This document shows, one piece after another, positions 4,672 to 36,536 of a DNA stretch of 64,000 bases. Numbering within the stretch: the first letter of the stretch is position 1; every line of letters begins with the position of its first letter. Origin of the DNA: Vitreimonas sp. (GTDB lineage Bacteria > Patescibacteriota > Microgenomatia > UBA1400 > PJMF01); the NCBI GenBank assembly GCA_035627515.1, contig DASPLQ010000012.1:714331-778330 (forward strand), read 5' to 3'. Position numbers and translations under genes: made by a program. Under the pieces are notes generated by a model. That model had not been told where the DNA came from, made no database searches, and was given only the letters and a program-made list of their open reading frames with translations.

Positions 4672-5763
4672 ATGGCTATTCCCAAAGCTGTCCAACGAGA
4701 TATTGAAGAACTGCTCAAAAAGGGCAAACAAGCTGGGTTCATCACTCAAGATGATGTTCTCGAAGCGTTTGTCGAGCCTGAGCTGTATATTGATGAGCTC
4801 GATGAGTTTTATGACCGCGTCATTAGCGAAGGTATCGATATCTTTGAGTCAGTCTCTGATGATGCCCAAGGTGAAGACGCCGACGTCTTGCAACGTGAGC
4901 TAGAAGTCTTATCTTCGCTTGATTCTGATGGTGTGTCTGACCCTGTCAGAATGTACCTCAAGGAAATTGGTCGCATTCCGCTTTTAAATCGTGAAGAAGA
5001 AATTCGTTTGGCTCAAAAAGCCGAGTCTGGTGATCTCAAAGCCAAAGAAAAACTGACAGCCTCTAACTTACGGTTAGTGGTCTCAATTGCCAAGAAATAC
5101 ATTGGTCGTGGCATGACGTTCTTGGATTTGATCCAAGAGGGCAACAAAGGTCTCATTCGGGCCGTCGAAAAGTACGACTGGACCAAAGGTTTTAAATTCT
5201 CAACCTACGCTACCTGGTGGATTCGCCAGGCTATTACGCGGGCCATCGCTGACCAGGCTCGGACCATCCGGATTCCGGTCCACATGGTGGAAACCATCAA
5301 TAAATTGATGCGCACCGCCCGTAAGTTGATGCAAGACCTCGGTCGTGAGCCAACTCCAGAGGAGATTGCCACCGCCATGGGCGACATGGATGCTGATAAG
5401 GTTCGTGAAATTCTCAAGATTTCTCAAAATACCACCTCATTGGAATCTCCAGTGGGTGAAAGTGATGATGACAGCGTCTTAGGCGACTTCATCGCTGATG
5501 AGCGACAAATTTCGCCTTACGAAGCTACCAGTCAACAAATGTTGCGTGAGAATGTGGAAGAGGTCCTGTCCGCACTCTCCGACCGAGAAGCTAAAGTCCT
5601 CAAAATGCGCTTTGGATTAAGTGGCAACAAGATGATGACTCTCGAAGAAGTGGGCCAAAAATTTGGCGTCACTCGCGAGCGGATCCGACAAATTGAAGCC
5701 AAGGCTCTGCGCAAGCTCAAACATCCTTCTCGACGAAAGATGCTGCAAGATTTCTTGGAGTAA
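4672..5763 (+). CDS. rpoD: RNA polymerase primary sigma factor (sigma-70)
   Basis: [16 protein letters not shown] (region 1.2), [29 protein letters not shown] (region 2.3-2.4), and a region 4 [29 protein letters not shown]. Confidence 0.92.
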
Positions 5764-6582: not shown

Positions 6583-7920
6583 ATGAATACCGTTCTTTCT
6601 CTTTCGAAGCTAGAGTTTAACGAGCAATTTAGCCAGGCTCTCGAAATTCTCGAAAAAAGTACCCAACATGTTTTTATCACTGGTCGTGCGGGGACTGGCA
6701 AATCTACCCTGCTCAGTTACTTTCGCCAGCAGACGCAACAAGCCTATGTGGTGGCCGCTCCCACCGGAGTGGCGGCGCTCAACGTCCAAGGAGAAACTAT
6801 TCACTCCTTATTTAAATTTTGGCCGAATATCACTGTCGCTGAAGCCAAGAAGCAAGCCTATAAAGCCCACAAGAAACGAGAGCTTTTTCAAAACCTCCAG
6901 ATTTTAGTCATCGATGAAATTTCGATGGTGAGAGCTGATTTGATGGATGCGATGGATATTTTTTTGCAAACCATCCGCGCTAATGATACGCCGTTTGGTG
7001 GTGTGCGCTTAATTGCCTTTGGTGATCTCTATCAATTACCACCGGTTTTAAATCGTGAAGAAGAGATTGCCTTTAGTTTGATTTATCCTTCTCCCTATTT
7101 TTTTGATTCCGAAGTTTTTCAACGCTTGTTGCAGATGCAACCATCACCTCTGACAGTGATTGAACTCCAGACAATTTATCGCCAATCTGAGCAAGAATTT
7201 ATTGAGGTTTTGAATGGGATTAGAGATAAGACCCTGACCTCTGAGCAATTAAACATCCTTAATCGCCGAGTCAATGATGAGTGGGCTGAACACCTAGATA
7301 CGGCAATTGTGTTGACTGCCACTAATTATCAGGCAGAACACATCAATACTCGCCAACTGCAAGCTTTAGATGCTGAACCATGGTTTTATCAGGGCTCGAT
7401 TACCGGCAGTTTTGATAAGCCCAGTTTTCCCACCGATGAAGTGATCACGCTGAAACCTGGAGCCAGAGTGATGATGGTTAATAATGACGCTGACAAACGC
7501 TGGGTCAATGGCAGTATGGGCCGGGTAGTCAAGTTTCAACCCAAGCCAGACAATCCTGCTGCCACCTTAGTGATTGTTAAGCTCGATAGTGGTGAAGAGG
7601 TGGAGGTGGCACCGTATTCATGGGAAATCAGCCAATCTATTTATAATCAAGAAACGAACACGATTGAGAGAGAAGTGATTGGCAGTTTTTCTCAATATCC
7701 TCTGCGGTTAGCGTGGGCAGTGACGATTCATAAAAGCCAAGGTAAAACTTTTACCAAAGTCATTGTGGATCTTGGTCGTCAAGCGTTTGCAGCGGGGCAG
7801 ACGTATGTGGCCTTAAGTCGCTGCACCTCTTTGGGTGGCCTCCATCTGGTACGTCCCCTCCGAGACAACGATATTCAGCTCGATTCTCGAATTCTCTCTT
7901 TTCTCAAGACACTTAAATAA
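6583..7920 (+). CDS. PIF1/RecD-like ATP-dependent DNA helicase (AAA_30 + UvrD_C_2)
   Basis: Walker A GRAGTGKST, Walker B LVIDEISMV, and the C-terminal HKSQGKTF...YVALSRCTSL helicase motifs. Confidence 0.8.
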   Translation: MNTVLSLSKLEFNEQFSQALEILEKSTQHVFITGRAGTGKSTLLSYFRQQTQQAYVVAAPTGVAALNVQGETIHSLFKFWPNITVAEAKKQAYKAHKKRELFQNLQILVIDEISMVRADLMDAMDIFLQTIRANDTPFGGVRLIAFGDLYQLPPVLNREEEIAFSLIYPSPYFFDSEVFQRLLQMQPSPLTVIELQTIYRQSEQEFIEVLNGIRDKTLTSEQLNILNRRVNDEWAEHLDTAIVLTATNYQAEHINTRQLQALDAEPWFYQGSITGSFDKPSFPTDEVITLKPGARVMMVNNDADKRWVNGSMGRVVKFQPKPDNPAATLVIVKLDSGEEVEVAPYSWEISQSIYNQETNTIEREVIGSFSQYPLRLAWAVTIHKSQGKTFTKVIVDLGRQAFAAGQTYVALSRCTSLGGLHLVRPLRDNDIQLDSRILSFLKTLK

Positions 7921-7973: not shown

Positions 7974-8045
7974 TCCCCGATAGCTCAATGGCAGAGCAAT
8001 TCGCTGTTAACGAAAAGGTTCTAGGTTCGAATCCTAGTCGGGGAG
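7974..8045 (+). tRNA. tRNA-Asn (anticodon GTT)
   Basis: Hand-folded cloverleaf. Perfect 7-bp acceptor stem TCCCCGA/TCGGGGA, D-arm GCTC/GAGC, anticodon loop CTGTTAA giving GTT, T-arm CTAGG-TTCGAAT-CCTAG, discriminator G, CCA not encoded. One A-A mismatch in the anticodon stem. Confidence 0.85.
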
Positions 8046-8113
8046 CTTCTGTTTTCCATCGAGTAAAATTTCCATAGCCCTCTTGGGTTCCGAACCTTTG
8101 TTATACTTCACTC

Positions 8114-8805: not shown

Positions 8806-8842
8806 GTTCGGTAATCTTTCCACAAAGTGAGCTCCTGTTTTT
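8806..8842 (+). repeat. degenerate copy of the tRNA-Asn 3' half plus downstream flank (att-like repeat C)
   Basis: GTTCGgtAATC...GAGCTcCTGTTTTT aligns to tRNA GTTCGAATCC...GAGCTTCTGTTTT (T-loop through 3' flank). Confidence 0.5.
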
Positions 8843-10737: not shown

Positions 10738-11361
10738 ATGCTAGAAAATAATGCACAGATAGGCTTAGAAGTTAACAAAACTCAAGACCTGGGTCCGGTA
10801 TTAAACACTAATCTAGTTGTCCCAAGAGAAAGTGTAACTGGGTTTGAGAATACTCCATGCTTGGTATTTGGTAATGGAGTTGAGATTGAGACTGTAGTCT
10901 ATGCCAAAAGTACCCAAGAGAACGTGAGAGAGATGGCCGATGGCAGAAGCGTCCTTTCATTACACCAAAGAAGAGGAAGCGATGGAGAAGGTACAGATGT
11001 AGTCAAAGTACATTTCCTACCCACAACTTCATTAGCAGAAAGGGCGTCAGATCCTGAGCAGGTGGCTGAGTCAGAGAAGTGGCACATACAAATAGATGCT
11101 ATAACAGGTTTTTTATCTATGGCGAATGCGTTTACAAAAGATCAAATTATTATTTCTAATGGCTCCTCACCTGATTATTATTTATTTATGGATACTAATC
11201 CACAATTTGCAGCCTTTATGAGATTGAGGTGTGGATTCAGAGGAACTATTGGAGGTACTCAGGTATGGATAAAAAGAAGCGAGTTCACATCAGAAGAGAA
11301 CAGAGCGCTAATGAGCAGCTTTTTAGAATCATTGAAAGAAAGAGTGAGTACTGTTTCATAA
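10738..11361 (+). CDS. hypothetical protein (207 aa)
   Basis: ORF with no recognisable motif; convergent with the 524-aa ORF, sharing a 6-nt 3' overlap. Confidence 0.4.
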   Translation: MLENNAQIGLEVNKTQDLGPVLNTNLVVPRESVTGFENTPCLVFGNGVEIETVVYAKSTQENVREMADGRSVLSLHQRRGSDGEGTDVVKVHFLPTTSLAERASDPEQVAESEKWHIQIDAITGFLSMANAFTKDQIIISNGSSPDYYLFMDTNPQFAAFMRLRCGFRGTIGGTQVWIKRSEFTSEENRALMSSFLESLKERVSTVS

Positions 11362-12930
11362 CTGGTTAATTAACTCAGATACCCATTTAGTTTGACTATC
11401 CAATGGCTTAGATAACTGTAAAGTTAGATATCCAGTTCTAGAAATGTGTGGATCATCAGAATTAGTAATCATTCTTGTGCCTGGCAATAATTCTAAAACA
11501 TGATTAACTAATTTTTCCTTATCATTTCTTATAGCGCTATCTATTTCTGAATTAACACGATGAATTCTGAAAGGAACTGTTTCCATTGCAATCAAGACAG
11601 TATCAATGTTTTTTTTGTGCAAAATAATAAGAGAACTAACTAAAGAAATTAACTTAGCTGATGGAGTTTGTGTTTTGACAAGTTCTTTGAATTCCTGTGG
11701 TAAAAAAAACTTCTTGAGTGAAGATAAGTTGAATTTTTGTTTTTGAAAGACTTCATCTTTTTCTAAGGCTTGCTGTTTCACCTTTTTATTATTGCGAAGT
11801 AAACTTATAAGATTCCATATGCGGTCTAAGTCTTCTTCAGGTTGATTTGAATTCAAATCTTTTAGCAAAACCTGTATTTTTGATTTCCACCAAAACTCAA
11901 GTGATGTTTCACTAGATTCTCTCAAATGAAGTTCAGTTAGATTTTTCTCAATAGTAGTGTAGTCGATGACATCTATTTCATTATTAAAGGTCAAAATAGT
12001 GAATAAGTCAGGAAAGTAGTTCTGTAAAATTAAAATAGCTTTATTTAATTCAATGCGGTTTCTTTCTAGAGCTAACTCAAGGCTTCTCTGTGATTGATTC
12101 TCAATTTTAGGTAATTGGATTGACTGGATAATGGCTGTAGTGGGTCCTGTAATTCCCACACGAACGTCGGGTAGCCGATATTCAGGTGCTTGTTTCCCAA
12201 TAGCTTCCAGAGGTGAAAGAGTAAATTGAAGTTCTTCAGGACCTTCATACACTAAATCCGGCGACTGGATTCGCCAACTGAGAAGTCCTTGATCTAAGGC
12301 AACTGAAGACCAAGATGTAGTATGAGCTAGAACAGTACTTTCCAACTGGTTTGCGAGCTGTTCAAAAAAAACACTGCCATGAATTAAATCACCTAGTGTC
12401 ATTTCTCTTAAATAACTTTCTACTAAGGTACTTAACCTCTCAATTGGTAACTCATTGTGAAGAAATATTCTTTGAAAATATTTCTCCCCACTATCTTGTC
12501 GCGTCTGGGTGGCTGTGATGATCCTATCAAGTGAGGTAACTAAGTTTGCTAAATCATCAACTCTAAGCAGTTTATGATAGTGGTAAAATTCCTCATTTTT
12601 ATCTTCATTATCGGGGTCTTTTTTCTCAAGATACTCAGTGTATGCATCAGGGTTATTCCAATAGCTCAATATAAATTGACCTTCGGATGTGGCGAATTGA
12701 ATAGCATCAAAGCCTAATCGACTGCGAGGTGAGAAAGAGGCACGGACAGAAAAAGAACCACTTGAGAGAAGTCTCAAAACGAGTTCTTTGCTAAGCGTAG
12801 AATTAGTTGGTGGTAAACTTTCCAAGTAGTTTTTAGCTTTGTCTAATACTTGATGAAAATTCGATTGAGGTCCTACTTCGTTGTTTGCCTTGGCTCTAAT
12901 AACTGCACCAACTGGGTATTCTAGAATCAT
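11356..12930 (-). CDS. hypothetical protein (524 aa), orphan
   Basis: Long uninterrupted ORF in AT-rich DNA. No P-loop, no nuclease, recombinase or HTH motif detected by eye. Confidence 0.5.
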   Translation of the reverse strand: MILEYPVGAVIRAKANNEVGPQSNFHQVLDKAKNYLESLPPTNSTLSKELVLRLLSSGSFSVRASFSPRSRLGFDAIQFATSEGQFILSYWNNPDAYTEYLEKKDPDNEDKNEEFYHYHKLLRVDDLANLVTSLDRIITATQTRQDSGEKYFQRIFLHNELPIERLSTLVESYLREMTLGDLIHGSVFFEQLANQLESTVLAHTTSWSSVALDQGLLSWRIQSPDLVYEGPEELQFTLSPLEAIGKQAPEYRLPDVRVGITGPTTAIIQSIQLPKIENQSQRSLELALERNRIELNKAILILQNYFPDLFTILTFNNEIDVIDYTTIEKNLTELHLRESSETSLEFWWKSKIQVLLKDLNSNQPEEDLDRIWNLISLLRNNKKVKQQALEKDEVFQKQKFNLSSLKKFFLPQEFKELVKTQTPSAKLISLVSSLIILHKKNIDTVLIAMETVPFRIHRVNSEIDSAIRNDKEKLVNHVLELLPGTRMITNSDDPHISRTGYLTLQLSKPLDSQTKWVSELINQL

Positions 12931-13038: not shown

Positions 13039-13075
13039 TTTCGGGTAAAGTCCCACAAGGGGAGCTTTTTCTATC
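13039..13075 (+). repeat. degenerate copy of the tRNA-Asn 3' end plus flank (att-like repeat A)
   Basis: TTCGGGTAAAGTCCCACAAGGGGAGCTTTTTCT. About 27 of 31 nt identical to repeat B. GGGGAGCT matches the tRNA 3' terminus. Confidence 0.5.
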
Positions 13076-13962: not shown

Positions 13963-14349
13963 ATGTCCAAAGAAAATGCCGTTACTTTTTTAGACCCATT
14001 TGTAATAAGTGCCTACAAGCATCTAGTTTTAGGAATCGACTTTAGACAAGCTTTTGCAGATTCAGTGAGCTTAGTTGATTTTGAACAGAAAAAAGAGGAG
14101 TTATTGAAGGAAATAGATAGAAGGCTACTTAGTGGTTCTGTTGAAGATTTGGGTAAGCTTATTAAAAGTATGCAAATTACCAGAAATTCAAACAAAGATG
14201 AGTTGCAAGAAAGAGCTGCTCTAGAACGTTTAGAAAACGAACTTGGGTTAACAGTTGAACAGGCTTCTCTTGTATTTCAGACATGCACTCAGTTAAACGA
14301 TCAATTATTTAATAAGCTCTGGGGAATTAGTTCTCAAGGTCAAGGTTAA
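13963..14349 (+). CDS. hypothetical protein (128 aa)
   Basis: ORF divergent from the TrmB gene; no motif recognised. Confidence 0.4.
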   Translation: MSKENAVTFLDPFVISAYKHLVLGIDFRQAFADSVSLVDFEQKKEELLKEIDRRLLSGSVEDLGKLIKSMQITRNSNKDELQERAALERLENELGLTVEQASLVFQTCTQLNDQLFNKLWGISSQGQG

Positions 14350-15035: not shown

Positions 15036-15367
15036 AAGGAAGTATGATCACAGTCGACGACTTTAAAAAGTTAGATATTCGTATTGGAAAAGTTATTTCA
15101 ATCGAAAAGGTCCCAGATGCTGATAAACTCCTGAGGTTTGTTTTTGATGTCGGTGATGAGCATAGGCAAATCATGGCGGGAATGGCAGAGTTTTTTCTTG
15201 ATCCTTCTCAGTTAGTAGGTAAAGAGATGCCCATTTTAATGAATATAGAGCCAAGGAATTTCCGTGGATACACTAGTCATGGAATGATTATTGCTGCTGA
15301 TGTAAATGGCGCTCCGGTTCTTTTACATCCTGAAAAAGAGATTCCTGCTGGGAGCATTGTTCGCTAA
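15032..15367 (+). CDS. tRNA-binding (Myf/EMAP domain) protein, CsaA-like
   Basis: DFKKLDIRIGKVISIEKVPDADKLLRFVFDVGDEHRQIMAGM is the classic tRNA-binding OB-fold motif. ATGA start/stop overlap with the upstream gene. Confidence 0.75.
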   Translation: MKGSMITVDDFKKLDIRIGKVISIEKVPDADKLLRFVFDVGDEHRQIMAGMAEFFLDPSQLVGKEMPILMNIEPRNFRGYTSHGMIIAADVNGAPVLLHPEKEIPAGSIVR

Positions 15368-15377
15368 CTAAATAACC

Positions 15378-15412
15378 GTTCGGATAAAGTCCCACACCGG
15401 GAGCTTCTGTTT
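15378..15412 (+). repeat. direct repeat of the tRNA-Asn 3' end plus flank (att-like repeat B)
   Basis: GGGAGCTTCTGTTT (14 nt) is identical to the sequence spanning the tRNA 3' terminus and flank (8041-8054); 16 of 19 nt match over the wider stretch. Confidence 0.6.
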
Positions 15413-15559
15413 GAAAAGATGGTTTTAAATCAGGCATTTTCAAGAATATATCAGTATATTTTTAGAGTTCGACTGAATCTCTGTATTTTTCTGCCTATTT
15501 TTTTTGTTCACCAAGTACTCTAGAGTGTGTAAACAGACTAATCCACCCAAATAAGAAGA

Positions 15560-17560
15560 TTAAAAAATTATCTTAAATCTTTTCTCAGCCTCTTCAAATA
15601 GTTTTATAACTCTATCTATCGTTTCTGAAGAAAGCTTTACTTCACTCTGCTCTGTTAGCTTCAGAAAGTTTCTAGATAATAAAACCTTATCTTTTTTATG
15701 TTGTTTTATATATTCTGAGTTTTTTGAAGTGTAACTTACGCTTTCATCTTCTAAAACATACTTTTTGAAATCCTCGGCAGCAAAGATATCTTCTATAGTG
15801 CTATTGTCACTATCTAATACAGACAATATTTCCTCTTTAGATATTAACCAATCTTTTCTAAGATGCTTTTCAGCATCTTTTTTACCTTTATCGTTGTCAT
15901 ATAAGTAAAGCACATTACATCCCCATCCATTAAGAATAGTACCTACAAAAGGCATATTTCCTGACCCACCTCCAAATATGAAATTTAATATAAATTTACC
16001 GGTCAATAGCTTAAAACTATTTAGATAGTAAACATCAGATGGTCCTTCACATACGATGTTGCTTTTCTTATCTAAGTTTACAACACCAGAGGTAAGCTCT
16101 AATCCAATTGCAGTTAATAAAGGTGTTAATGTTTCTTTGTCGGCGACTTTATGAATTTTCGACTCAATATGTGTGCCAATATTATATCCAATTGTGTACA
16201 AAATCCTCCGAAGCTTTTCTTGTTCATCTTCAGTTAGCTCATCAACTTTAGTTTTTAGTTGATAGTATATCCTGTCATCTTTTTTGTGTTTTTTTTCCTC
16301 ATAATACTTCTTTAAATCGTCTGTAATTTCAGATATTTGAACTGCTTCTATTAGTTTTGGGATCTCAGCTCTTTGAACAAGTCTTATTCGATGCAATTTG
16401 TCAGTATCTATTAGATATGGTGAATGGGTTGTAAAAATAATCTTCTTTTTTTTAGAAGTATCTTCTAATTTATTTAAGATATCTCTCTGTGCAGATGCAT
16501 GTAGAAATAAGCCTGGTTCGTCTATTAATAAAATATTATCCTTTTCTTCTTTGGATCTAGCAGTTATACGAATATAGAAAGCCAGATGCCATCTTTTTCC
16601 TTGACTTCTAATTTCAGGAGGGTAATATGATTCATCTTCTCTTATTTGAAACATTAGTTGTTCTGAATCCCAGTCAATTTGAATATTAGAAAAGTCTTGG
16701 GACCAAAACCTCTTATATTCTTGCTTTAGCTGTAGGTTTAATTGTTCTTTATGTTGTAGTTTTTCATGTATCTCACCTGAAGTAATAACATTTAGATCTA
16801 AGCCAGTTATTAAAGCAAGATCCTTCATCAGGGGATGACTCTGTACATCACTTAGAGCTAATGTAGAAGGGAAAGTTTCATCAAAAGACCTAAATAGAAT
16901 AAAGTTGGGTAGTAATGTTTTTATTACTGGGATGAAATTTACTTGGATATTATTTAGCAGTGAGAGCTGATTTGCTAGTAAATCAACATTTTGGACAATG
17001 TCTAATAGTTCTTTTTTTTCTTCAGATAAAGAAAGTGCGTCTCTAAGTTTGGAAATTTTTGTGTTGTAGGTAGTAAAATCCTCTATACTATCTGGTACTA
17101 AATGATGTAGTTCTTCACGATCTCTAAAACTATTAATTAATTTTTGTAGTTGGTCTTTGGCTTTTTCTTTGATAGTAGTATACGAATCAGCAACACCAAA
17201 CAGTTGTTCATATGTTTTATCATCTATGAAATACTCTGAAGGAAACCTTTTATTAATTGTAATTTCAATACCTTGACCTTTGCTATTTGGTTCAATCTTT
17301 AGTTGTTTCTTTATTACATCATTATCAGATTCTTGAAGGGAAAATGTTAAAGCAACCTCAGGTGTCCTATCTTTCCTAAATAAAGATTTTGCTTTCTCTC
17401 TGATAGGAATATCACTATTAAAATCTTCAAGAGCCTCTAGCAAGGCTGTTTTTCCAGCCTCATTTTTACCTGCAAATATAGTAATACCATCTTCAAAATT
17501 ACATTCACCGCTATCAATAATTGACTTATAGTTTTTAACTCTGAACCTAAGTAATTTCAT
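15560..17560 (-). CDS. OLD-family ATP-dependent endonuclease (ABC ATPase N-domain + TOPRIM C-domain); GajA-like / class-1 OLD
   Basis: Walker A GKNEAGKT (aa 31-38), Walker B/D-loop ILLIDEPGLFLH (aa 343-354), H-loop FTTHSP (aa 376-381). TOPRIM Glu in IVCEGPSD (E505) and DxD in YLYDNDKGK (D555, D557), 50 aa apart as in OLD/GajA. Very AT-rich. Confidence 0.8.
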   Translation of the reverse strand: MKLLRFRVKNYKSIIDSGECNFEDGITIFAGKNEAGKTALLEALEDFNSDIPIREKAKSLFRKDRTPEVALTFSLQESDNDVIKKQLKIEPNSKGQGIEITINKRFPSEYFIDDKTYEQLFGVADSYTTIKEKAKDQLQKLINSFRDREELHHLVPDSIEDFTTYNTKISKLRDALSLSEEKKELLDIVQNVDLLANQLSLLNNIQVNFIPVIKTLLPNFILFRSFDETFPSTLALSDVQSHPLMKDLALITGLDLNVITSGEIHEKLQHKEQLNLQLKQEYKRFWSQDFSNIQIDWDSEQLMFQIREDESYYPPEIRSQGKRWHLAFYIRITARSKEEKDNILLIDEPGLFLHASAQRDILNKLEDTSKKKKIIFTTHSPYLIDTDKLHRIRLVQRAEIPKLIEAVQISEITDDLKKYYEEKKHKKDDRIYYQLKTKVDELTEDEQEKLRRILYTIGYNIGTHIESKIHKVADKETLTPLLTAIGLELTSGVVNLDKKSNIVCEGPSDVYYLNSFKLLTGKFILNFIFGGGSGNMPFVGTILNGWGCNVLYLYDNDKGKKDAEKHLRKDWLISKEEILSVLDSDNSTIEDIFAAEDFKKYVLEDESVSYTSKNSEYIKQHKKDKVLLSRNFLKLTEQSEVKLSSETIDRVIKLFEEAEKRFKIIF

Positions 17561-17842
17561 AACCTACCTTTAAAGTTAACGTGATTTTAACAGATTGAAA
17601 TGAAAATAATATTAAGTAAAGATCATCTACACACTGCAGTTAAATATCTAGTATCATCAGACTTACTACTAACTTAACTAAAATGAGTAAAATTCTAACT
17701 TCCTCCAACAGAGGCAGCAAACGACATCGAACCTTTTTTCTTCAATTAATAACTCTAATCTAACCACAACCCAACTCGAAATGTTCAACCCTCTAACGTT
17801 TTTTGTAGTACAATTAGCCTATAAAATTAATAGGAGAATAAA

Positions 17843-18343
17843 ATGAGTAAGCTAATTACCTGTATCTGGTTTGTTAATAACAATGGAGAAGAGGCAGTAA
17901 GATACTACATCGACACTTTTAAATCAGCCCCTGGTAATCATGAAGCAAAACTGGGAGATATCACCAAAGCACCTAAAGCGTCTGAAGAAGTTTCTGGTAG
18001 ACCTGAGGGGTCCGTTATGACAGCTGAATGCGAGCTTGACGGTATAAGCTTCATGGCTCTAAATGGTGGTCCTCTCGAACAATTCAAACTTAATGGGTCA
18101 ACGTCTTTTATAGTTGAGTGTGAAACCCAAGAGGAAATTGATTTCTTCTGGGAAAAGTTATCAGCAGTTCCTGAAGCTGAGCAATGCGGATGGTGCACTG
18201 ATAAATTTGGCGTCACATGGCAAATCGTCCCCAGAATTTTAGATGAAATGATGAGAGACCCTCAAAAAGCTGAGGCGGTAACTGCTGCTTTTATGCCAAT
18301 GAAGAAACTTGACCTGGAAGCAATTAGAAAAGCTGGTGAATAA
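17843..18343 (+). CDS. VOC-family protein, PhnB-like (3-demethylubiquinone-9 3-methyltransferase domain)
   Basis: ITCIWFVNN...EAVRYYIDTF and EQCGWCTDKFGVTWQI motifs, shared with the VOC genes at 35226 and 35655. Confidence 0.7.
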   Translation: MSKLITCIWFVNNNGEEAVRYYIDTFKSAPGNHEAKLGDITKAPKASEEVSGRPEGSVMTAECELDGISFMALNGGPLEQFKLNGSTSFIVECETQEEIDFFWEKLSAVPEAEQCGWCTDKFGVTWQIVPRILDEMMRDPQKAEAVTAAFMPMKKLDLEAIRKAGE

Positions 18344-18578: not shown

Positions 18579-19145
18579 ATGAAGTTACCTAAAAGTCTAA
18601 CAACTGTAACACCGCTTTCAAAGGCTTTAGCTTTAATTCTTTTTTTCCTATTACCCATCTTAGGTTTTTATCTAGGCATGAAGTATCAGCAAGCTCTTAT
18701 TTTTAGTCATTCAATCTCCCTAATTGAAAACACGTCTTCAGATTTAGACATAGAGAAATCAGATACAACTAATTGGCTAGATTATAAAAATAATACCTGG
18801 GGGTTTGAACTAAAACTCCCCCCCACTTGGGAAGGATATTTAGTAAGTGAACATAATTGGACCACAAATCCAACACATGAGTATACTGCTGATATTTGTA
18901 TTTATTTTAAACGCTTTGATAGTATTCCTGCCTGTATTTTGCATGTGAGTGTGTTTTCTGCTGAAGAATTGCAAGCCGTAAGTAAAAAAGGTGCTTTACC
19001 TAATTTATTAGGTCAGTCGAATCAATTTTTCTTCGCAGCCAATGAGTATGATCCTCAATGTGCGCAATTAGATTCTTTTCAGTGTGATCGATCAAAAGAG
19101 CTGCCTGAGATTTTATCCACTTTTAAATTGAACGCTAAAGAATAA
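18579..19145 (+). CDS. hypothetical membrane-anchored or secreted protein (188 aa)
   Basis: N-terminal hydrophobic segment LALILFFLLPILGFYLGM; Cys-rich C-terminus. Confidence 0.4.
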   Translation: MKLPKSLTTVTPLSKALALILFFLLPILGFYLGMKYQQALIFSHSISLIENTSSDLDIEKSDTTNWLDYKNNTWGFELKLPPTWEGYLVSEHNWTTNPTHEYTADICIYFKRFDSIPACILHVSVFSAEELQAVSKKGALPNLLGQSNQFFFAANEYDPQCAQLDSFQCDRSKELPEILSTFKLNAKE

Positions 19146-19174
19146 AGAATGTAGTTCCTGTTATACTCACACCT

Positions 19175-19966
19175 ATGACCTCATTAGAAGAGCAAAATAT
19201 TAAACCGTTTAATTTGACTGATTCTGAACAAACGCTTCATTTAAAAGACACACTTGCTCAATCTGTCGATTTATCTGCAATTAAAGAAAAGCTAATGTGG
19301 GTGGACTGTGATATCTCACTATTTGATATTCAGTTATTAAAACAAGTCCTAAATCCAGAATTAATGGGTATTACTGTTTTCTCTTCAATGGATCAGGATG
19401 CTTTTAATAAATGGTCAAAATTTAGTAGTTATCCTGACAATGAATCCCTAGTACTTATCTCAAATCCTGAAGCACCCCAGGCTCTTTTTGAAGATTCAGC
19501 TTCATTTTGTTCTATTTTATTTTCTATAGATGAAAGTGGGGCTTCTGTATTACTGCACTATCCTGTGGTGAGTGACAGTGGGGCTTTAACACTTACGGAA
19601 GAAATGAAACTGCAGTTAGAGGATTTTGCGAAAGCTGCAATGAAACTCTCCCAAAATAGAAAAAACGTATTAACATCTACCAATGTATCTGATAAGAACC
19701 GAAACCAGGTACTCAATTTTATTAAAGATTGCATCGGTGAAGACTTTCATTTAGAAACTATTTTTACTCAGGAAACATTTGAAAATCAAAATGATATTAC
19801 ATCTACTTCAGTACAATTAACAAAAAATTTTATTAATGGTGTACTAATTATTCCCAAACAGTTGACCATAGATAAAAGAACAAAGGTTTTTTTATTTACC
19901 AATAAGACAGGGTACACATACGATCAATTAATGGAAACATTAACCAGAAATCACTTCACTCGATAA
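19175..19966 (+). CDS. hypothetical protein (263 aa)
   Basis: ORF at the distal end of the AT-rich island; no motif recognised. Confidence 0.4.
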   Translation: MTSLEEQNIKPFNLTDSEQTLHLKDTLAQSVDLSAIKEKLMWVDCDISLFDIQLLKQVLNPELMGITVFSSMDQDAFNKWSKFSSYPDNESLVLISNPEAPQALFEDSASFCSILFSIDESGASVLLHYPVVSDSGALTLTEEMKLQLEDFAKAAMKLSQNRKNVLTSTNVSDKNRNQVLNFIKDCIGEDFHLETIFTQETFENQNDITSTSVQLTKNFINGVLIIPKQLTIDKRTKVFLFTNKTGYTYDQLMETLTRNHFTR

Positions 19967-35654: not shown

Positions 35655-36536
35655 ATGCAAAAAATCGTCACTCACTTATGGTATGACAAAGAAGCCGTGG
35701 AAGCGGCAGAGTTTTATACCTCTGTCTTTCCCAATTCTAAGATCAACTATAAAACCACGATTCATAACACGCCGTCCGGTGACTGTGACATTTTAAGCAT
35801 CGAGATTATGGGCCAGGAATTCATGCTCATTAGTGCTGGACCATACTTCAAGTTTAATCCTTCGGTTTCGTTTTTGGTATCCTGTAAAACTAAAACTGAA
35901 GTGGATGAGTTATGGGGCAAGCTTTCGGTGGGAGGGGCGGCGTTAATGGAGCTGGGTGAGTATCCTTTTAGCAAATGGTATGGTTGGACGCAAGATAAAT
36001 ATGGCTTGTCATGGCAAATAATGTTAAGCGATCAAGAAATAAAGCAAGTTATTGTTCCGACTATGATGTTTGTCGGGGATCAATGTGGCCGAGCCGAAGA
36101 AGCTATCACTTTCTACAACTCGGTCTTCCGTAATAGCAGTGTTGGCCATGTCATGCGCTATAACGAAGGTGAAGAGCCAGATAAAGCCGGTACTATCCGA
36201 CACGCGGGTTTTACTTTGGAAGGCCAAGAGTTTGCAGCTATGGACAGTGCGCAGGAGCATACGTTTGCATTTAATGAAGCGATTTCCTTCATTGTTCGCT
36301 GTGAAGATCAAACAGAGATTGATTATTATTGGGAAAAACTGTCAGCAGATCCTAAAGCCGAGCAATGTGGCTGGTTGAAAGATAAGTTTGGTTTTTCTTG
36401 GCAAATTGAGCCCACAGCGATGCAGAAAATAATGCAAGATAAGGATCAAGCGCGTGTTGATCGGGTCACTCAGGCTTTCTTAAAAATGAAGAAGTTTGAT
36501 ATTGCTGAACTCGAAAAAGCTTATGAGGGTAAATAA
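35655..36536 (+). CDS. tandem two-domain VOC/PhnB-like protein
   Basis: The single-domain pattern occurs twice internally: HLWYDKEAVEAAEFYTSVF...KYGLSWQI and MMFVGDQCGRAEEAITFYNSVF...EQCGWLKDKFGFSWQI. Confidence 0.7.
   Translation: MQKIVTHLWYDKEAVEAAEFYTSVFPNSKINYKTTIHNTPSGDCDILSIEIMGQEFMLISAGPYFKFNPSVSFLVSCKTKTEVDELWGKLSVGGAALMELGEYPFSKWYGWTQDKYGLSWQIMLSDQEIKQVIVPTMMFVGDQCGRAEEAITFYNSVFRNSSVGHVMRYNEGEEPDKAGTIRHAGFTLEGQEFAAMDSAQEHTFAFNEAISFIVRCEDQTEIDYYWEKLSADPKAEQCGWLKDKFGFSWQIEPTAMQKIMQDKDQARVDRVTQAFLKMKKFDIAELEKAYEGK

What the first reader, a model, noticed from the sequence alone, without database searches (positions are those of the whole stretch)
15560..17560. Solo OLD-family ABC-ATPase/TOPRIM nuclease at the island junction: candidate anti-phage gene
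Seen in sequence: a 666-aa protein with an N-terminal ABC ATPase (Walker A GKNEAGKT, Walker B/D-loop LLIDEPGLFLH, H-loop THSP) fused to a C-terminal TOPRIM (E505 in CEGPSD, D555-N-D557 in YLYDNDKG, the Gly-rich GGGSGN between them). The gene is conspicuously AT-rich and begins right next to att-like repeat B.

Established knowledge: this architecture defines OLD (overcoming lysogenization defect) nucleases, Gabija GajA, and also fused PARIS AriA-AriB. These are phage-defence effectors, usually partnered with a UvrD-like helicase (class 2 OLD, Gabija) or stand-alone (class 1).

No helicase or second component lies within 2 kb on either side. The flanks are a PhnB-like VOC gene divergently upstream and the CsaA gene past repeat B. 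It therefore appears to be a solo class-1-type OLD protein or a single-chain PARIS-like variant.
Basis: partly seen in the sequence, partly recalled or inferred. Interest (0 to 1): 0.75.

Follow-up and report, generated by a model that had tools for sequence, protein, structure and literature searches.

The report
Solo OLD-family ATPase–TOPRIM nuclease gene
An intact single gene in a Patescibacteria (candidate phyla radiation) genome encodes a divergent member of the OLD family of ATP-driven nucleases that bacteria use against phages; it is a new member of a known kind, not a new type of system.

The parts
15560..17560 (-). Complete gene for the 666-aa OLD-family protein (stop codon at 15560-15562)
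   Evidence: The identical protein is on record on a 1.41-Mb contig.
16370..17560 (-). ABC ATPase domain, residues 1-397 (AAA_15 type)
   Evidence: PF13175 AAA_15 covers residues 1-384, E 9.3e-22. Foldseek gives full-length matches to TsOLD 6p74 and to GajA.
17447..17470 (-). Walker A motif GKNEAGKT (residues 31-38; K37)
   Evidence: G31, N33, E34, G36 and K37 are invariant even in the deep alignment.
16916..17221 (-). Helical insertion in the ATPase (about residues 114-215), the likely counterpart of the OLD dimerisation domain
   Evidence: The AF2 model has helices at 127-144, 162-177 and 180-214 between the two ATPase lobes. TsOLD and GajA carry a dimerisation domain inserted in the ATPase (PMC10568477). 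The equivalence is inferred.
16598..16609 (-). Degenerate ABC signature-like motif R318-S-Q-G321
   Evidence: R318, S319 and G321 are invariant in the deep alignment. A degenerate signature is reported for OLD proteins (PMC7049728).
16499..16531 (-). Walker B / D-loop motif LLIDEPGLFLH (residues 344-354; D347, E348, H354)
   Evidence: It aligns with IDEPELYLH of P2 Old.
16418..16429 (-). H-loop THSP (residues 378-381; H379)
   Evidence: Invariant. It aligns with THS of P2 Old.
16178..16366 (-). Clade-specific insertion of about 60 aa (residues 399-461), function unknown
   Evidence: Present only in the window protein and its 48-52% identical relatives P0002, P0004, P0005, P0007 and P0008. Modelled with pLDDT about 85-94. 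Only a weak YfeC-like hit, E 0.023.
16094..16159 (-). Family-invariant linker motif KIHKVADKETLTPLLTAIGLEL (residues 468-489), role unknown
   Evidence: D474, L478, P480 and G486 are invariant across bacteria and archaea. Not confidently modelled, pLDDT below 50.
15746..16063 (-). TOPRIM core (about residues 500-605). Putative metal A ligands: E505, D555, D557. Putative metal B ligands: D509, T588, E590
15563..15745 (-). C-terminal helical region (residues 606-666) with invariant K625, a candidate counterpart of the class 2 catalytic Lys
   Evidence: Helices at 614-620, 625-637 and 645-665. K625 is invariant in the deep alignment. Foldseek gives TM 0.51-0.54 over the whole BpOLD C-terminal region 6nk8. 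The role of K625 is inferred.
15379..15412 (+). Distal degenerate copy of the tRNA-Asn 3' end (attR-like), 148 nt from the gene's stop codon
   Evidence: The exact 14-mer GGGAGCTTCTGTTT is shared with 8041-8054.
7974..8046 (+). tRNA-Asn(GTT), an integration hotspot that marks the start of the variable AT-rich segment holding the gene (context)
   Evidence: It is conserved in relatives L090 and L092, and the content diverges directly after it.

Best explanation
The gene encodes a stand-alone OLD-family enzyme. Shown: an N-terminal ABC ATPase of the OLD/AAA_15 type with a helical insertion is fused to a C-terminal OLD-type TOPRIM nuclease domain with a short helical tail. Every residue needed for ATP binding and hydrolysis is conserved (K37, D347/E348, H354, H379). 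So is every residue needed for two-metal phosphodiester cleavage (E505, D555, D557; D509, E590). Inferred: by analogy with characterised OLD proteins, the protein dimerises or oligomerises through the helical insertion, and the ATPase heads act as a nucleotide-dependent switch that licenses the TOPRIM site to cut nucleic acid. The target could be DNA (nicking or degradation, as in Vc OLD and Ts OLD) or tRNA (as in P2 Old). The outcome would be to stop a phage or other mobile element, possibly at the cost of the cell. The gene is horizontally acquired cargo in a variable region next to a tRNA-Asn integration hotspot of a Patescibacteria genome, and here it works without an adjacent partner gene. 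The trigger and the substrate are not known.
For: Architecture and motifs.
Catalytic residue spacing matches TsOLD (PMC7049728).
Solo context.
Foreign and accessory character: 30.9% GC. RpoD has relatives at 92% identity, but the best OLD relative is only 52-53% identical. Related genomes carry different cargo after the same tRNA-Asn, including a TIR-domain gene and a recombinase element.
Defence association of the family: patchy distribution across bacterial and archaeal phyla. There is no shared synteny. Homologs are embedded in type III and type I R-M operons or lie next to GmrSD-HNH. R-M-type genes reach 9.3 per 100 kb within 2 kb, against about 1 per 100 kb at 4-8 kb. Serine recombinases lie within 4 kb in 8 of 67 loci. 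Solo copies occur on Lactococcus and B. thuringiensis plasmids.
Precedent: solo class 1 OLDs defend on their own (PMC12392090; PMC12445682; PMC13261556). The single-chain ABC-ATPase/TOPRIM protein HEC-04 defends when tested (bioRxiv 10.1101/2024.01.29.577857).
Against: There is no experimental evidence for any member of this subfamily.
In this protein the Pfam TOPRIM hit is below the curated cutoff (16.3 vs 23.2 bits). Defence-model hits (PADLOC) cover only the ATPase.
The window's own neighbours are not recognisable defence genes, so the defence-island argument rests on homologs.
The R-M enrichment has no genome-wide background control, and its queries were taken from near neighbours.
OLD proteins need not be defensive: Cran1 acts in the archaeal cell cycle (PMC12796447). 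[quoted passage not shown]
Confidence: 0.66

Rival explanations
1. It is an orphaned or trans-acting component of a two-part arrangement. In this reading the subfamily normally works as a guard wired to a restriction-modification system, as PrrC is wired to EcoprrI, or as PARIS senses anti-restriction proteins. The window copy would then depend on an R-M system or partner encoded elsewhere in the genome, or would be a leftover.
For: 13 of 67 loci have an R-M-type gene within 500 nt. These include mod 3-4 nt upstream with res downstream (L041, L043, L055, L056, L066) and HsdM-OLD-x-HsdS-HsdR (L042). The closest genome relative, L010 (53% identity), has a type I R-M 1.3 kb away. Embedding of ABC-ATPase defence genes as back-ups is documented.
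Against: Most loci, including the window and the closest relatives (L001, L004, L006, L008), have no R-M neighbour. The window gene is intact, with every catalytic residue. Solo plasmid copies exist. No direct evidence of a physical or regulatory link exists.
Confidence: 0.15
2. It is a housekeeping or chromosome-maintenance OLD/ABC ATPase, like archaeal Cran1 (class 5) or a RecF/SbcC/Rad50-type repair protein, and not a defence gene.
For: OLD-family proteins can have non-defence roles (PMC12796447). The family is unusually well conserved, with mean column identity 58% among 30 members. Several copies sit among ordinary metabolic and housekeeping genes. Weak RecF/Rad50/SMC_N profile hits exist.
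Against: RecF/RecN/Rad50 scores are far below the cutoffs (28 vs 172 bits and similar). Only 144 relatives were confirmed in 185,579 species genomes, scattered over many phyla of both domains. That count is pattern-limited. Close relatives of the host (RpoD about 90% identical) carry different genes at the equivalent locus, in the roughly 10 kb examined downstream of rpoD. No shared synteny exists. The GC content is atypical. The gene is linked to R-M systems and recombinases.
Confidence: 0.07
3. It is a fused single-chain PARIS system (AriA-AriB, class 4 OLD). It would sense phage anti-restriction proteins and cleave tRNA with a DUF4435-type TOPRIM.
For: The best PADLOC hit is an AriA model covering residues 1-384 (E 2.4e-22), and an AriAB fusion model also hits (E 3.4e-13). 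The solo fused architecture is compatible. The R-M association of homologs fits an anti-restriction sensor.
Confidence: 0.04
4. It is a selfish stabilisation or competition module of a mobile element (island or plasmid addiction, or exclusion of rival elements), rather than host-beneficial phage defence.
For: The gene sits next to a tRNA integration hotspot. It lies near serine recombinases in 8 of 67 loci and directly after a resolvase gene on a Lactococcus plasmid. P2 Old itself is prophage cargo used in phage-phage conflict.
Against: No integrase, recombinase or other mobility gene lies in the window's 8-20 kb segment. No full-length relative occurs in 50,697 phage records, and no PHROG matches the C-terminal domain. 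Many copies sit in chromosomal contexts without mobility genes. In practice this overlaps with defence and is hard to separate.
Confidence: 0.08

Closest known systems
Class 1 OLD family nucleases (P2 Old, Thermus scotoductus OLD, Vibrio cholerae OLD, E. coli YbjD/OldB)
   Same: Single isolated gene. N-terminal ABC ATPase with a helical insertion and a degenerate signature motif. C-terminal TOPRIM with Glu, DxD and a second acidic pair. The family profile aligns colinearly with P2 Old. The full-length model matches TsOLD 6p74 best.
   Different: Very remote in sequence: BLASTP to P2 Old finds only the Walker B region, 27% over 95 aa. About 80-140 aa longer than P2 Old (586), TsOLD (528) and YbjD (552). 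It has a C-terminal helical tail with an invariant Lys, which TsOLD lacks. It has a family-specific invariant linker motif and, in this clade, a 60-aa insertion. It is not found in phages.
Class 2 OLD nucleases / Gabija GajA (B. pseudomallei and X. campestris OLD C-terminal regions, B. cereus GajA)
   Different: [quoted passage not shown] No recurrent helicase partner appears in 67 homolog loci other than R-M HsdR/Res subunits. GajA models hit only weakly.
HEC-04 (single-chain ABC ATPase-TOPRIM defence protein found embedded in Hma systems; bioRxiv 10.1101/2024.01.29.577857)
   Same: One polypeptide with an ABC ATPase plus a TOPRIM that superposes on BpOLD 6NK8. Members of the present family are likewise embedded inside other defence operons, here type I and type III R-M.
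   Different: No HEC-04 model is among the 25 best PADLOC hits, where only HEC-01A ATPase models appear. The relationship was not tested directly. The window copy is not embedded in anything.
PARIS (AriA + AriB; class 4 OLD), including fused AriAB
   Same: ABC ATPase of the same broad AAA_15 type, plus a TOPRIM-fold nuclease. The best PADLOC hit is an AriA model.
   Different: The TOPRIM domain is not of the AriB/DUF4435 type.
PrrC / RloC anticodon nucleases embedded in type I R-M loci
   Same: An ABC-type ATPase fused to a C-terminal nuclease, with the gene inserted between R-M subunit genes in several homolog loci. The back-up logic is described.
   Different: The nuclease domain is unrelated (TOPRIM here). 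No evidence exists for tRNA cleavage or for control by the R-M enzyme. The window copy is solo.
Cran1 (class 5 OLD, Sulfolobales)
   Same: OLD-family ATPase plus TOPRIM with no known defence partner.
   Different: Cran1 is vertically inherited, sits in a conserved operon and is essential. This family is patchy, context-variable and compositionally foreign.

Membership tests
OLD family (ATPase-TOPRIM nucleases) | N-terminal ABC-type ATPase with Walker A Lys, Walker B acidic residue, and D-loop/H-loop His | tested here: met
   AAA_15 E 9.3e-22. K37, D347, E348, H354 and H379 are invariant down to 29% identity. Walker B and the H-loop align with P2 Old.
OLD family (ATPase-TOPRIM nucleases) | Helical dimerisation domain inserted in the ATPase | tested here: inconclusive
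   The model shows a helical insertion of about 100 aa (helices 127-144, 162-177, 180-214) between the ATPase lobes, and the full-length model matches TsOLD and GajA. Dimerisation itself cannot be tested here.
OLD family (ATPase-TOPRIM nucleases) | C-terminal TOPRIM domain of the OLD type, with the catalytic Glu and DxD (metal A) | tested here: met
OLD family (ATPase-TOPRIM nucleases) | Second (metal B) acidic set: acidic residue at Glu+4 and an S/T-x-E motif, plus a basic transition-state residue | tested here: inconclusive
   D509 (E505+4) is invariant. T588-x-E590 is present, with E590 at least 90% conserved. K625 is invariant and K599 is at least 90% conserved among the 30 closer relatives. 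The spacing mirrors TsOLD D381/S478/E480.
OLD family (ATPase-TOPRIM nucleases) | Metal-dependent nuclease and ATPase activity | not testable with these tools
   This needs purified protein.
Class 1 OLD | Isolated single gene, with no helicase, RT or other dedicated partner adjacent | tested here: met
   No same-strand gene lies within 150 nt on either side, and the flanking genes are convergent or divergent. No small ORF partner or known RNA is present. The neighbours match no defence system.
Class 1 OLD | C-terminal region lacking the class 2 helical domain (as in TsOLD); shorter protein | tested here: not met
   Residues 606-666 form three helices. The C-terminal model matches the class 2 C-terminal regions 6nk8/6njw best. 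The family length is about 608-675 aa. Classes are defined by gene context, so this is a structural difference, not an exclusion.
Class 2 OLD / Gabija GajA | [quoted passage not shown] | tested here: not met
   Downstream is a 192-nt gap and then a convergent CsaA-like gene. The only helicase is Pif1-like, 7.6 kb away. No recurrent UvrD-like neighbour appears in 67 loci.
Class 3 OLD (retron effector) | Adjacent reverse transcriptase and retron ncRNA | tested here: not met
   No RT appears among the neighbours. No Rfam match lies within 15200-18000 at E<=1.
Class 4 OLD / PARIS (AriA-AriB or fused AriAB) | TOPRIM nuclease of the AriB/DUF4435 type | tested here: not met
Class 5 OLD (Cran1) | Vertical inheritance within a lineage and a conserved operon partner | tested here: not met
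   Patchy distribution across phyla and domains. Variable contexts. Close relatives of the host carry different genes at the equivalent locus, in the roughly 10 kb examined downstream of rpoD.
HEC-04 (PADLOC candidate, ABC ATPase-TOPRIM fusion) | Match to the HEC-04 profile | tested here: inconclusive
   84 PADLOC families hit, but only the best 25 are shown. HEC-01A models are listed and no HEC-04 model is among them.

The most novel reading that the evidence does not exclude
This ~600-670-aa subfamily could be a distinct, so far unnamed OLD clade that combines a class 2-like TOPRIM-plus-helical C-terminal region with helicase independence. The C-terminal module has 629 representatives at the 50%-identity cluster level. 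Among the named hits the clade is prominent in ultra-small Patescibacteria genomes and also occurs in DPANN archaea. In this reading it acts as a guard of restriction-modification systems, triggered when a phage disables R-M, as with PrrC or PARIS. It might then cut tRNA, like P2 Old and AriB, rather than DNA. The invariant linker motif ADKETLTPxLTAIG would be the sensor or autoinhibitory element.
Probability: 0.12. Interest if true: 0.55.

Novelty: new member of a known kind. Interest (0 to 1): 0.3.

Why it matters
Stand-alone (class 1) OLD nucleases are the least understood branch of a widespread defence family. Only P2 Old, Vc OLD and YbjD have any phenotype, and those three disagree on substrate (tRNA versus DNA nicking) and on whether the nuclease is needed at all. 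This gene belongs to a well-conserved, easily alignable subfamily that curated TOPRIM and defence profiles largely miss. The subfamily occurs in Patescibacteria and DPANN archaea, for which a literature search here turned up little on defence systems. In other genomes it is repeatedly wired into type I and type III R-M operons. It also has cultivable, plasmid-borne relatives in Lactococcus lactis and Bacillus thuringiensis, which would allow direct tests. For annotation, it shows that 'AAA family ATPase' labels on such genes hide an OLD-type nuclease.

Tried and rejected
2. phmmer and hmmsearch against PDB sequences matched only the ATPase motifs, so they were uninformative for the TOPRIM part.
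3. An exact look-up of the window protein's own contig failed. The host was instead identified through RpoD relatives.
4. The promoter and terminator scan was no better than shuffled sequence.
5. The Rfam scans found only the tRNA.
6. A search for a further att-like repeat beyond the gene found none, so the distal end of the AT-rich segment (about 20 kb, by GC) is undefined.
7. A YaaC-family gene overlapping one homolog was considered as a possible partner. It did not recur in the neighbour clustering.
8. The PARIS, RecF/SbcC, retron and Gabija readings were rejected (see the membership table).
9. I could not measure distances between the putative catalytic residues, because model coordinates are not exposed.
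10. I could not place the family in the U1-U11 clades of PMC12796447.
Full report
OBSERVATION. The ORF is real and is exactly as described. It spans 15560-17560 on the minus strand, with an ATG start, 666 codons and a TAA stop. A script located each motif at the stated residue numbers: Walker A GKNEAGKT at 31-38, Walker B/D-loop LLIDEPGLFLH at 344-354, THSP at 378-381, CEGPSD at 504-509, GGGSGN at 530-535 and YLYDNDKG at 552-559. The gene has 30.9% GC. That is the lowest of the 27 genes measured, against 40.5% for the window and 44-48% for the core genes near rpoD. Its neighbours are a divergent PF06983 (PhnB-like) gene and a convergent tRNA_bind (CsaA-like) gene. No same-strand gene, small ORF or known RNA lies next to it.

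WHAT THE PROTEIN IS. Residues 1-384 match Pfam AAA_15 (E 9e-22). They also match the ATPase parts of the PADLOC AriA, PtuA, Old and GajA models. RecF, RecN and Rad50 models score far below their cutoffs.

No profile reached threshold on the C-terminal 200 residues of this sequence alone. OLD-like_TOPRIM (PF20469) scored 16.3 bits against a cutoff of 23.2. I therefore collected homologs: 947 hits, and the listed ones are 39-52% identical, nearly all over the full length. In an alignment of 30 of them, E505, G506, S508, D509, G530, G532, D555, D557 and E590 are invariant. Of these 30 members, 25 hit PF20469 individually (best E 9.9e-6). DUF4435 is not among the families they hit.

An AlphaFold2 model of the whole protein (pLDDT 81) matches the class 1 OLD of Thermus scotoductus (6p74) and GajA across both domains. 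PtuA, Rad50 and SMC heads cover only the ATPase.

Finally, hhalign of the family profile against P2 Old itself, fetched from AF063097, gives 93% probability (E 2.7e-7). The alignment is colinear, running from IDEPxLxLH and THS through the TOPRIM glutamate (VVEGxSD / LVEGKTE) to the DxD motif (YLYDND / ILADCD).

CATALYTIC RESIDUES. In TsOLD, metal A is held by E377/D431/D433 and metal B by D381/S478/E480, and R487 acts where class 2 enzymes use K562 from the helical domain (PMC7049728). Here E505/D555/D557 and D509/T588/E590 have the same spacing.

I also aligned relatives that are only 29-35% identical, from Methanosarcinales, Micrarchaeota, Firmicutes and Alphaproteobacteria. In that alignment K37, D347, E348, H354, H379, E505, G506, D509 and K625 remain invariant, and D555, D557 and E590 are at least 90% conserved. 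K625 lies in the C-terminal helical tail (helix 625-637). This fits the better match to class 2 C-terminal regions, so K625 is my candidate for the K562 equivalent. That step is inference, because I could not access model coordinates.

CONTEXT IN THE WINDOW. The host is a Patescibacteria bacterium. Its RpoD is 77-92% identical to proteins labelled Patescibacteria, Pacebacteria or Woesebacteria where named. The 'Vitreimonas sp.' label on the deposited 1.41-Mb contig is therefore probably wrong.

A tRNA-Asn lies at 7974-8046. Its 3' end plus 8 downstream bases (GGGAGCTTCTGTTT) recurs exactly at 15399-15412, and degenerate copies lie at 8807-8840 and 13040-13067. The segment from 8 to 20 kb is AT-rich, at 35.3% GC.

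Two related genomes (RpoD about 90% identical) share the GluDH-RpoD block and the tRNA-Asn but differ completely after the tRNA. One has a TIR-domain gene about 50 nt downstream. The other has a large serine recombinase overlapping the tRNA's 3' end, with a Prim-Pol gene nearby. So the tRNA-Asn is an integration hotspot.

The OLD gene sits 148 nt beyond the distal repeat. That is the position that would have been directly downstream of the tRNA before the 7.4-kb insertion. The window segment holds no integrase and no recognisable defence system besides this gene.

FAMILY DISTRIBUTION AND NEIGHBOURS. A scan of one genome per species (185,579 species) confirmed 144 relatives. The scan is pattern-limited. 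Of the 80 loci kept, 23 are labelled as Patescibacteria lineages and 11 as archaea: Nanoarchaeota, Aenigmatarchaeota, Micrarchaeota, Methanosarcinales, Hadarchaeota, Nitrosotalea and Nitrosomirales (both ammonia-oxidising archaea), plus one labelled only 'uncultured archaeon'. The rest are spread over Elusimicrobia, Planctomycetota, Bdellovibrionota, Chloroflexi, Proteobacteria, Spirochaetia, Firmicutes and others. Some TPA labels are doubtful.

The C-terminal module alone finds 629 representatives at the 50%-identity cluster level among 1.84 billion proteins. It nearly always sits at the C-terminus of a 600-650-aa protein.

Contexts share no synteny. Clustering the neighbours of 67 loci, with Pfam checks on representatives, showed several recurrent arrangements:
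- The gene lies between mod and res of type III R-M operons, with mod ending 3-4 nt upstream (L041, L043, L055, L056, L066).
- It lies inside a type I operon, HsdM-OLD-x-HsdS-HsdR (L042).
- It lies next to HsdS (L049), HsdR (L052), a DNA methylase in a Methanosarcinales archaeon (L067), or GmrSD-HNH genes (L021, L040, L050 within 500 nt; L034 2.7 kb away).

R-M-type genes occur at 9.3 per 100 kb within 2 kb of the gene, against about 1 per 100 kb at 4-8 kb. Large serine recombinases lie within 4 kb in 8 loci. The caveat is that the 13 queries themselves lie in the near bins, and no genome-wide background was computed.

No phage record carries a full-length relative. Plasmids do: Lactococcus lactis pLLN8-2 has a solo copy right after a resolvase gene, and B. 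thuringiensis pMC319 has a copy annotated as OLD-family-like about 3 kb from an ATPase plus HNH pair.

MECHANISM. Shown: the domain architecture, conservation of all ATPase and TOPRIM catalytic residues, the solo context, the accessory and foreign character, and the family's association with R-M systems and mobile elements.

Inferred from characterised OLD proteins: oligomerisation through the helical insertion, nucleotide-dependent control of the nuclease, two-metal cleavage, and an anti-phage or anti-MGE outcome.

The substrate cannot be predicted. P2 Old severs tRNA anticodon stems (PMC12445682). Vc OLD nicks DNA (PMC12392090). TsOLD degrades DNA in vitro. In YbjD the TOPRIM domain is dispensable (PMC13261556). 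The trigger is also unknown.

COMPARISON AND NOVELTY. By the context-based scheme (class 1 solo; class 2 with GajB helicase; class 3 retron; class 4 PARIS; class 5 Cran1), this is a class 1 OLD. It differs from the characterised class 1 enzymes in several ways:
- It has a class 2-like C-terminal region.
- It carries a family-invariant linker motif (residues 468-489) that AF2 cannot place.
- In this clade it carries a confidently modelled 60-aa insertion (residues 399-461).
- It is very distant from them in sequence.

This is not surprising. Published phylogenies show class 2 nested within class 1 and at least 11 uncharacterised OLD clades. A single-chain ABC-ATPase/TOPRIM protein embedded in another defence system (HEC-04) has already been validated experimentally.

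I therefore rate this as a new, divergent member of a known kind, with interest 0.3. The most novel reading not excluded is an R-M-guarding, possibly tRNA-targeting OLD clade found in Patescibacteria and DPANN archaea. I give it about 12% probability.

Noticed in passing
window 7974-8054, 8807-8840, 13040-13067, 15379-15412; L090 15022-16221; L092 12681-14310: The tRNA-Asn is an integration hotspot in this Patescibacteria lineage. An exact 14-nt direct repeat (the tRNA 3' end plus 8 nt) brackets a 7.4-kb integrase-less insert, with two more degenerate copies inside it. Related genomes carry a TIR-domain gene, or a serine-recombinase/Prim-Pol element, at the same tRNA.
   Followed up: partly
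whole window (rpoD at 4672-5763): The deposited 1.41-Mb contig is labelled 'Vitreimonas sp.' (an alphaproteobacterium). RpoD, however, is 77-92% identical to Patescibacteria, Pacebacteria and Woesebacteria proteins. The taxonomic label looks wrong.
   Followed up: partly
window 16094-16159 (residues 468-489): The linker motif KIHKVADKETLTPLLTAIGLEL is the most conserved stretch of the family. D474, L478, P480 and G486 are invariant from archaea to Firmicutes. AlphaFold2 nevertheless gives it pLDDT below 50, and P2 Old has no counterpart. It may be an interaction or autoinhibitory element.
   Followed up: no
window 16178-16366 (residues 399-461): An insertion of about 60 aa between the ATPase and the linker is present only in the window protein and its 48-52% identical relatives. 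It is confidently modelled (pLDDT about 85-94) as a small beta/alpha module. The only hit is a weak YfeC-like match (E 0.023).
   Followed up: no
L041, L042, L043, L049, L052, L055, L056, L066, L067: Homologs are embedded in type III (mod-OLD-RhuM-res) and type I (HsdM-OLD-x-HsdS-HsdR) R-M operons, or lie directly next to R-M subunits. One case is in an archaeon. The arrangement resembles that of PrrC.
   Followed up: partly
L003 / L012 9790-10890: A YaaC-family (PF14175) gene overlaps the 3' end of one homolog by about 30 nt, near a serine recombinase. It did not recur at other loci.
   Followed up: partly
window 17843-18343 and 35655-36536: The window holds two PhnB-like (PF06983) genes. The second appears to be a tandem-domain version, since both halves match the L090 homolog. 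A related genome also has a PF06983 gene in its variable region after the tRNA-Asn.
   Followed up: no
window 6583-7920: A Pif1-like SF1 helicase gene lies immediately upstream of the tRNA-Asn. It is absent from the equivalent position in the two related genomes. It gives partial hits to the PADLOC candidate models PDC-S68 and PDC-M16A.
   Followed up: no
window 11356-12930, 10738-11361, 13963-14349, 18579-19966: Several ORFs in the AT-rich segment (524, 207, 128, 188 and 263 aa) have no Pfam or PADLOC match at all.
   Followed up: no
proteins P0241, P0250, P0275: A few representatives of 177-226 aa consist of the TOPRIM-plus-helical module alone. They could be contig-end fragments or genuinely split (PARIS-like two-gene) versions of the family.
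   Followed up: no
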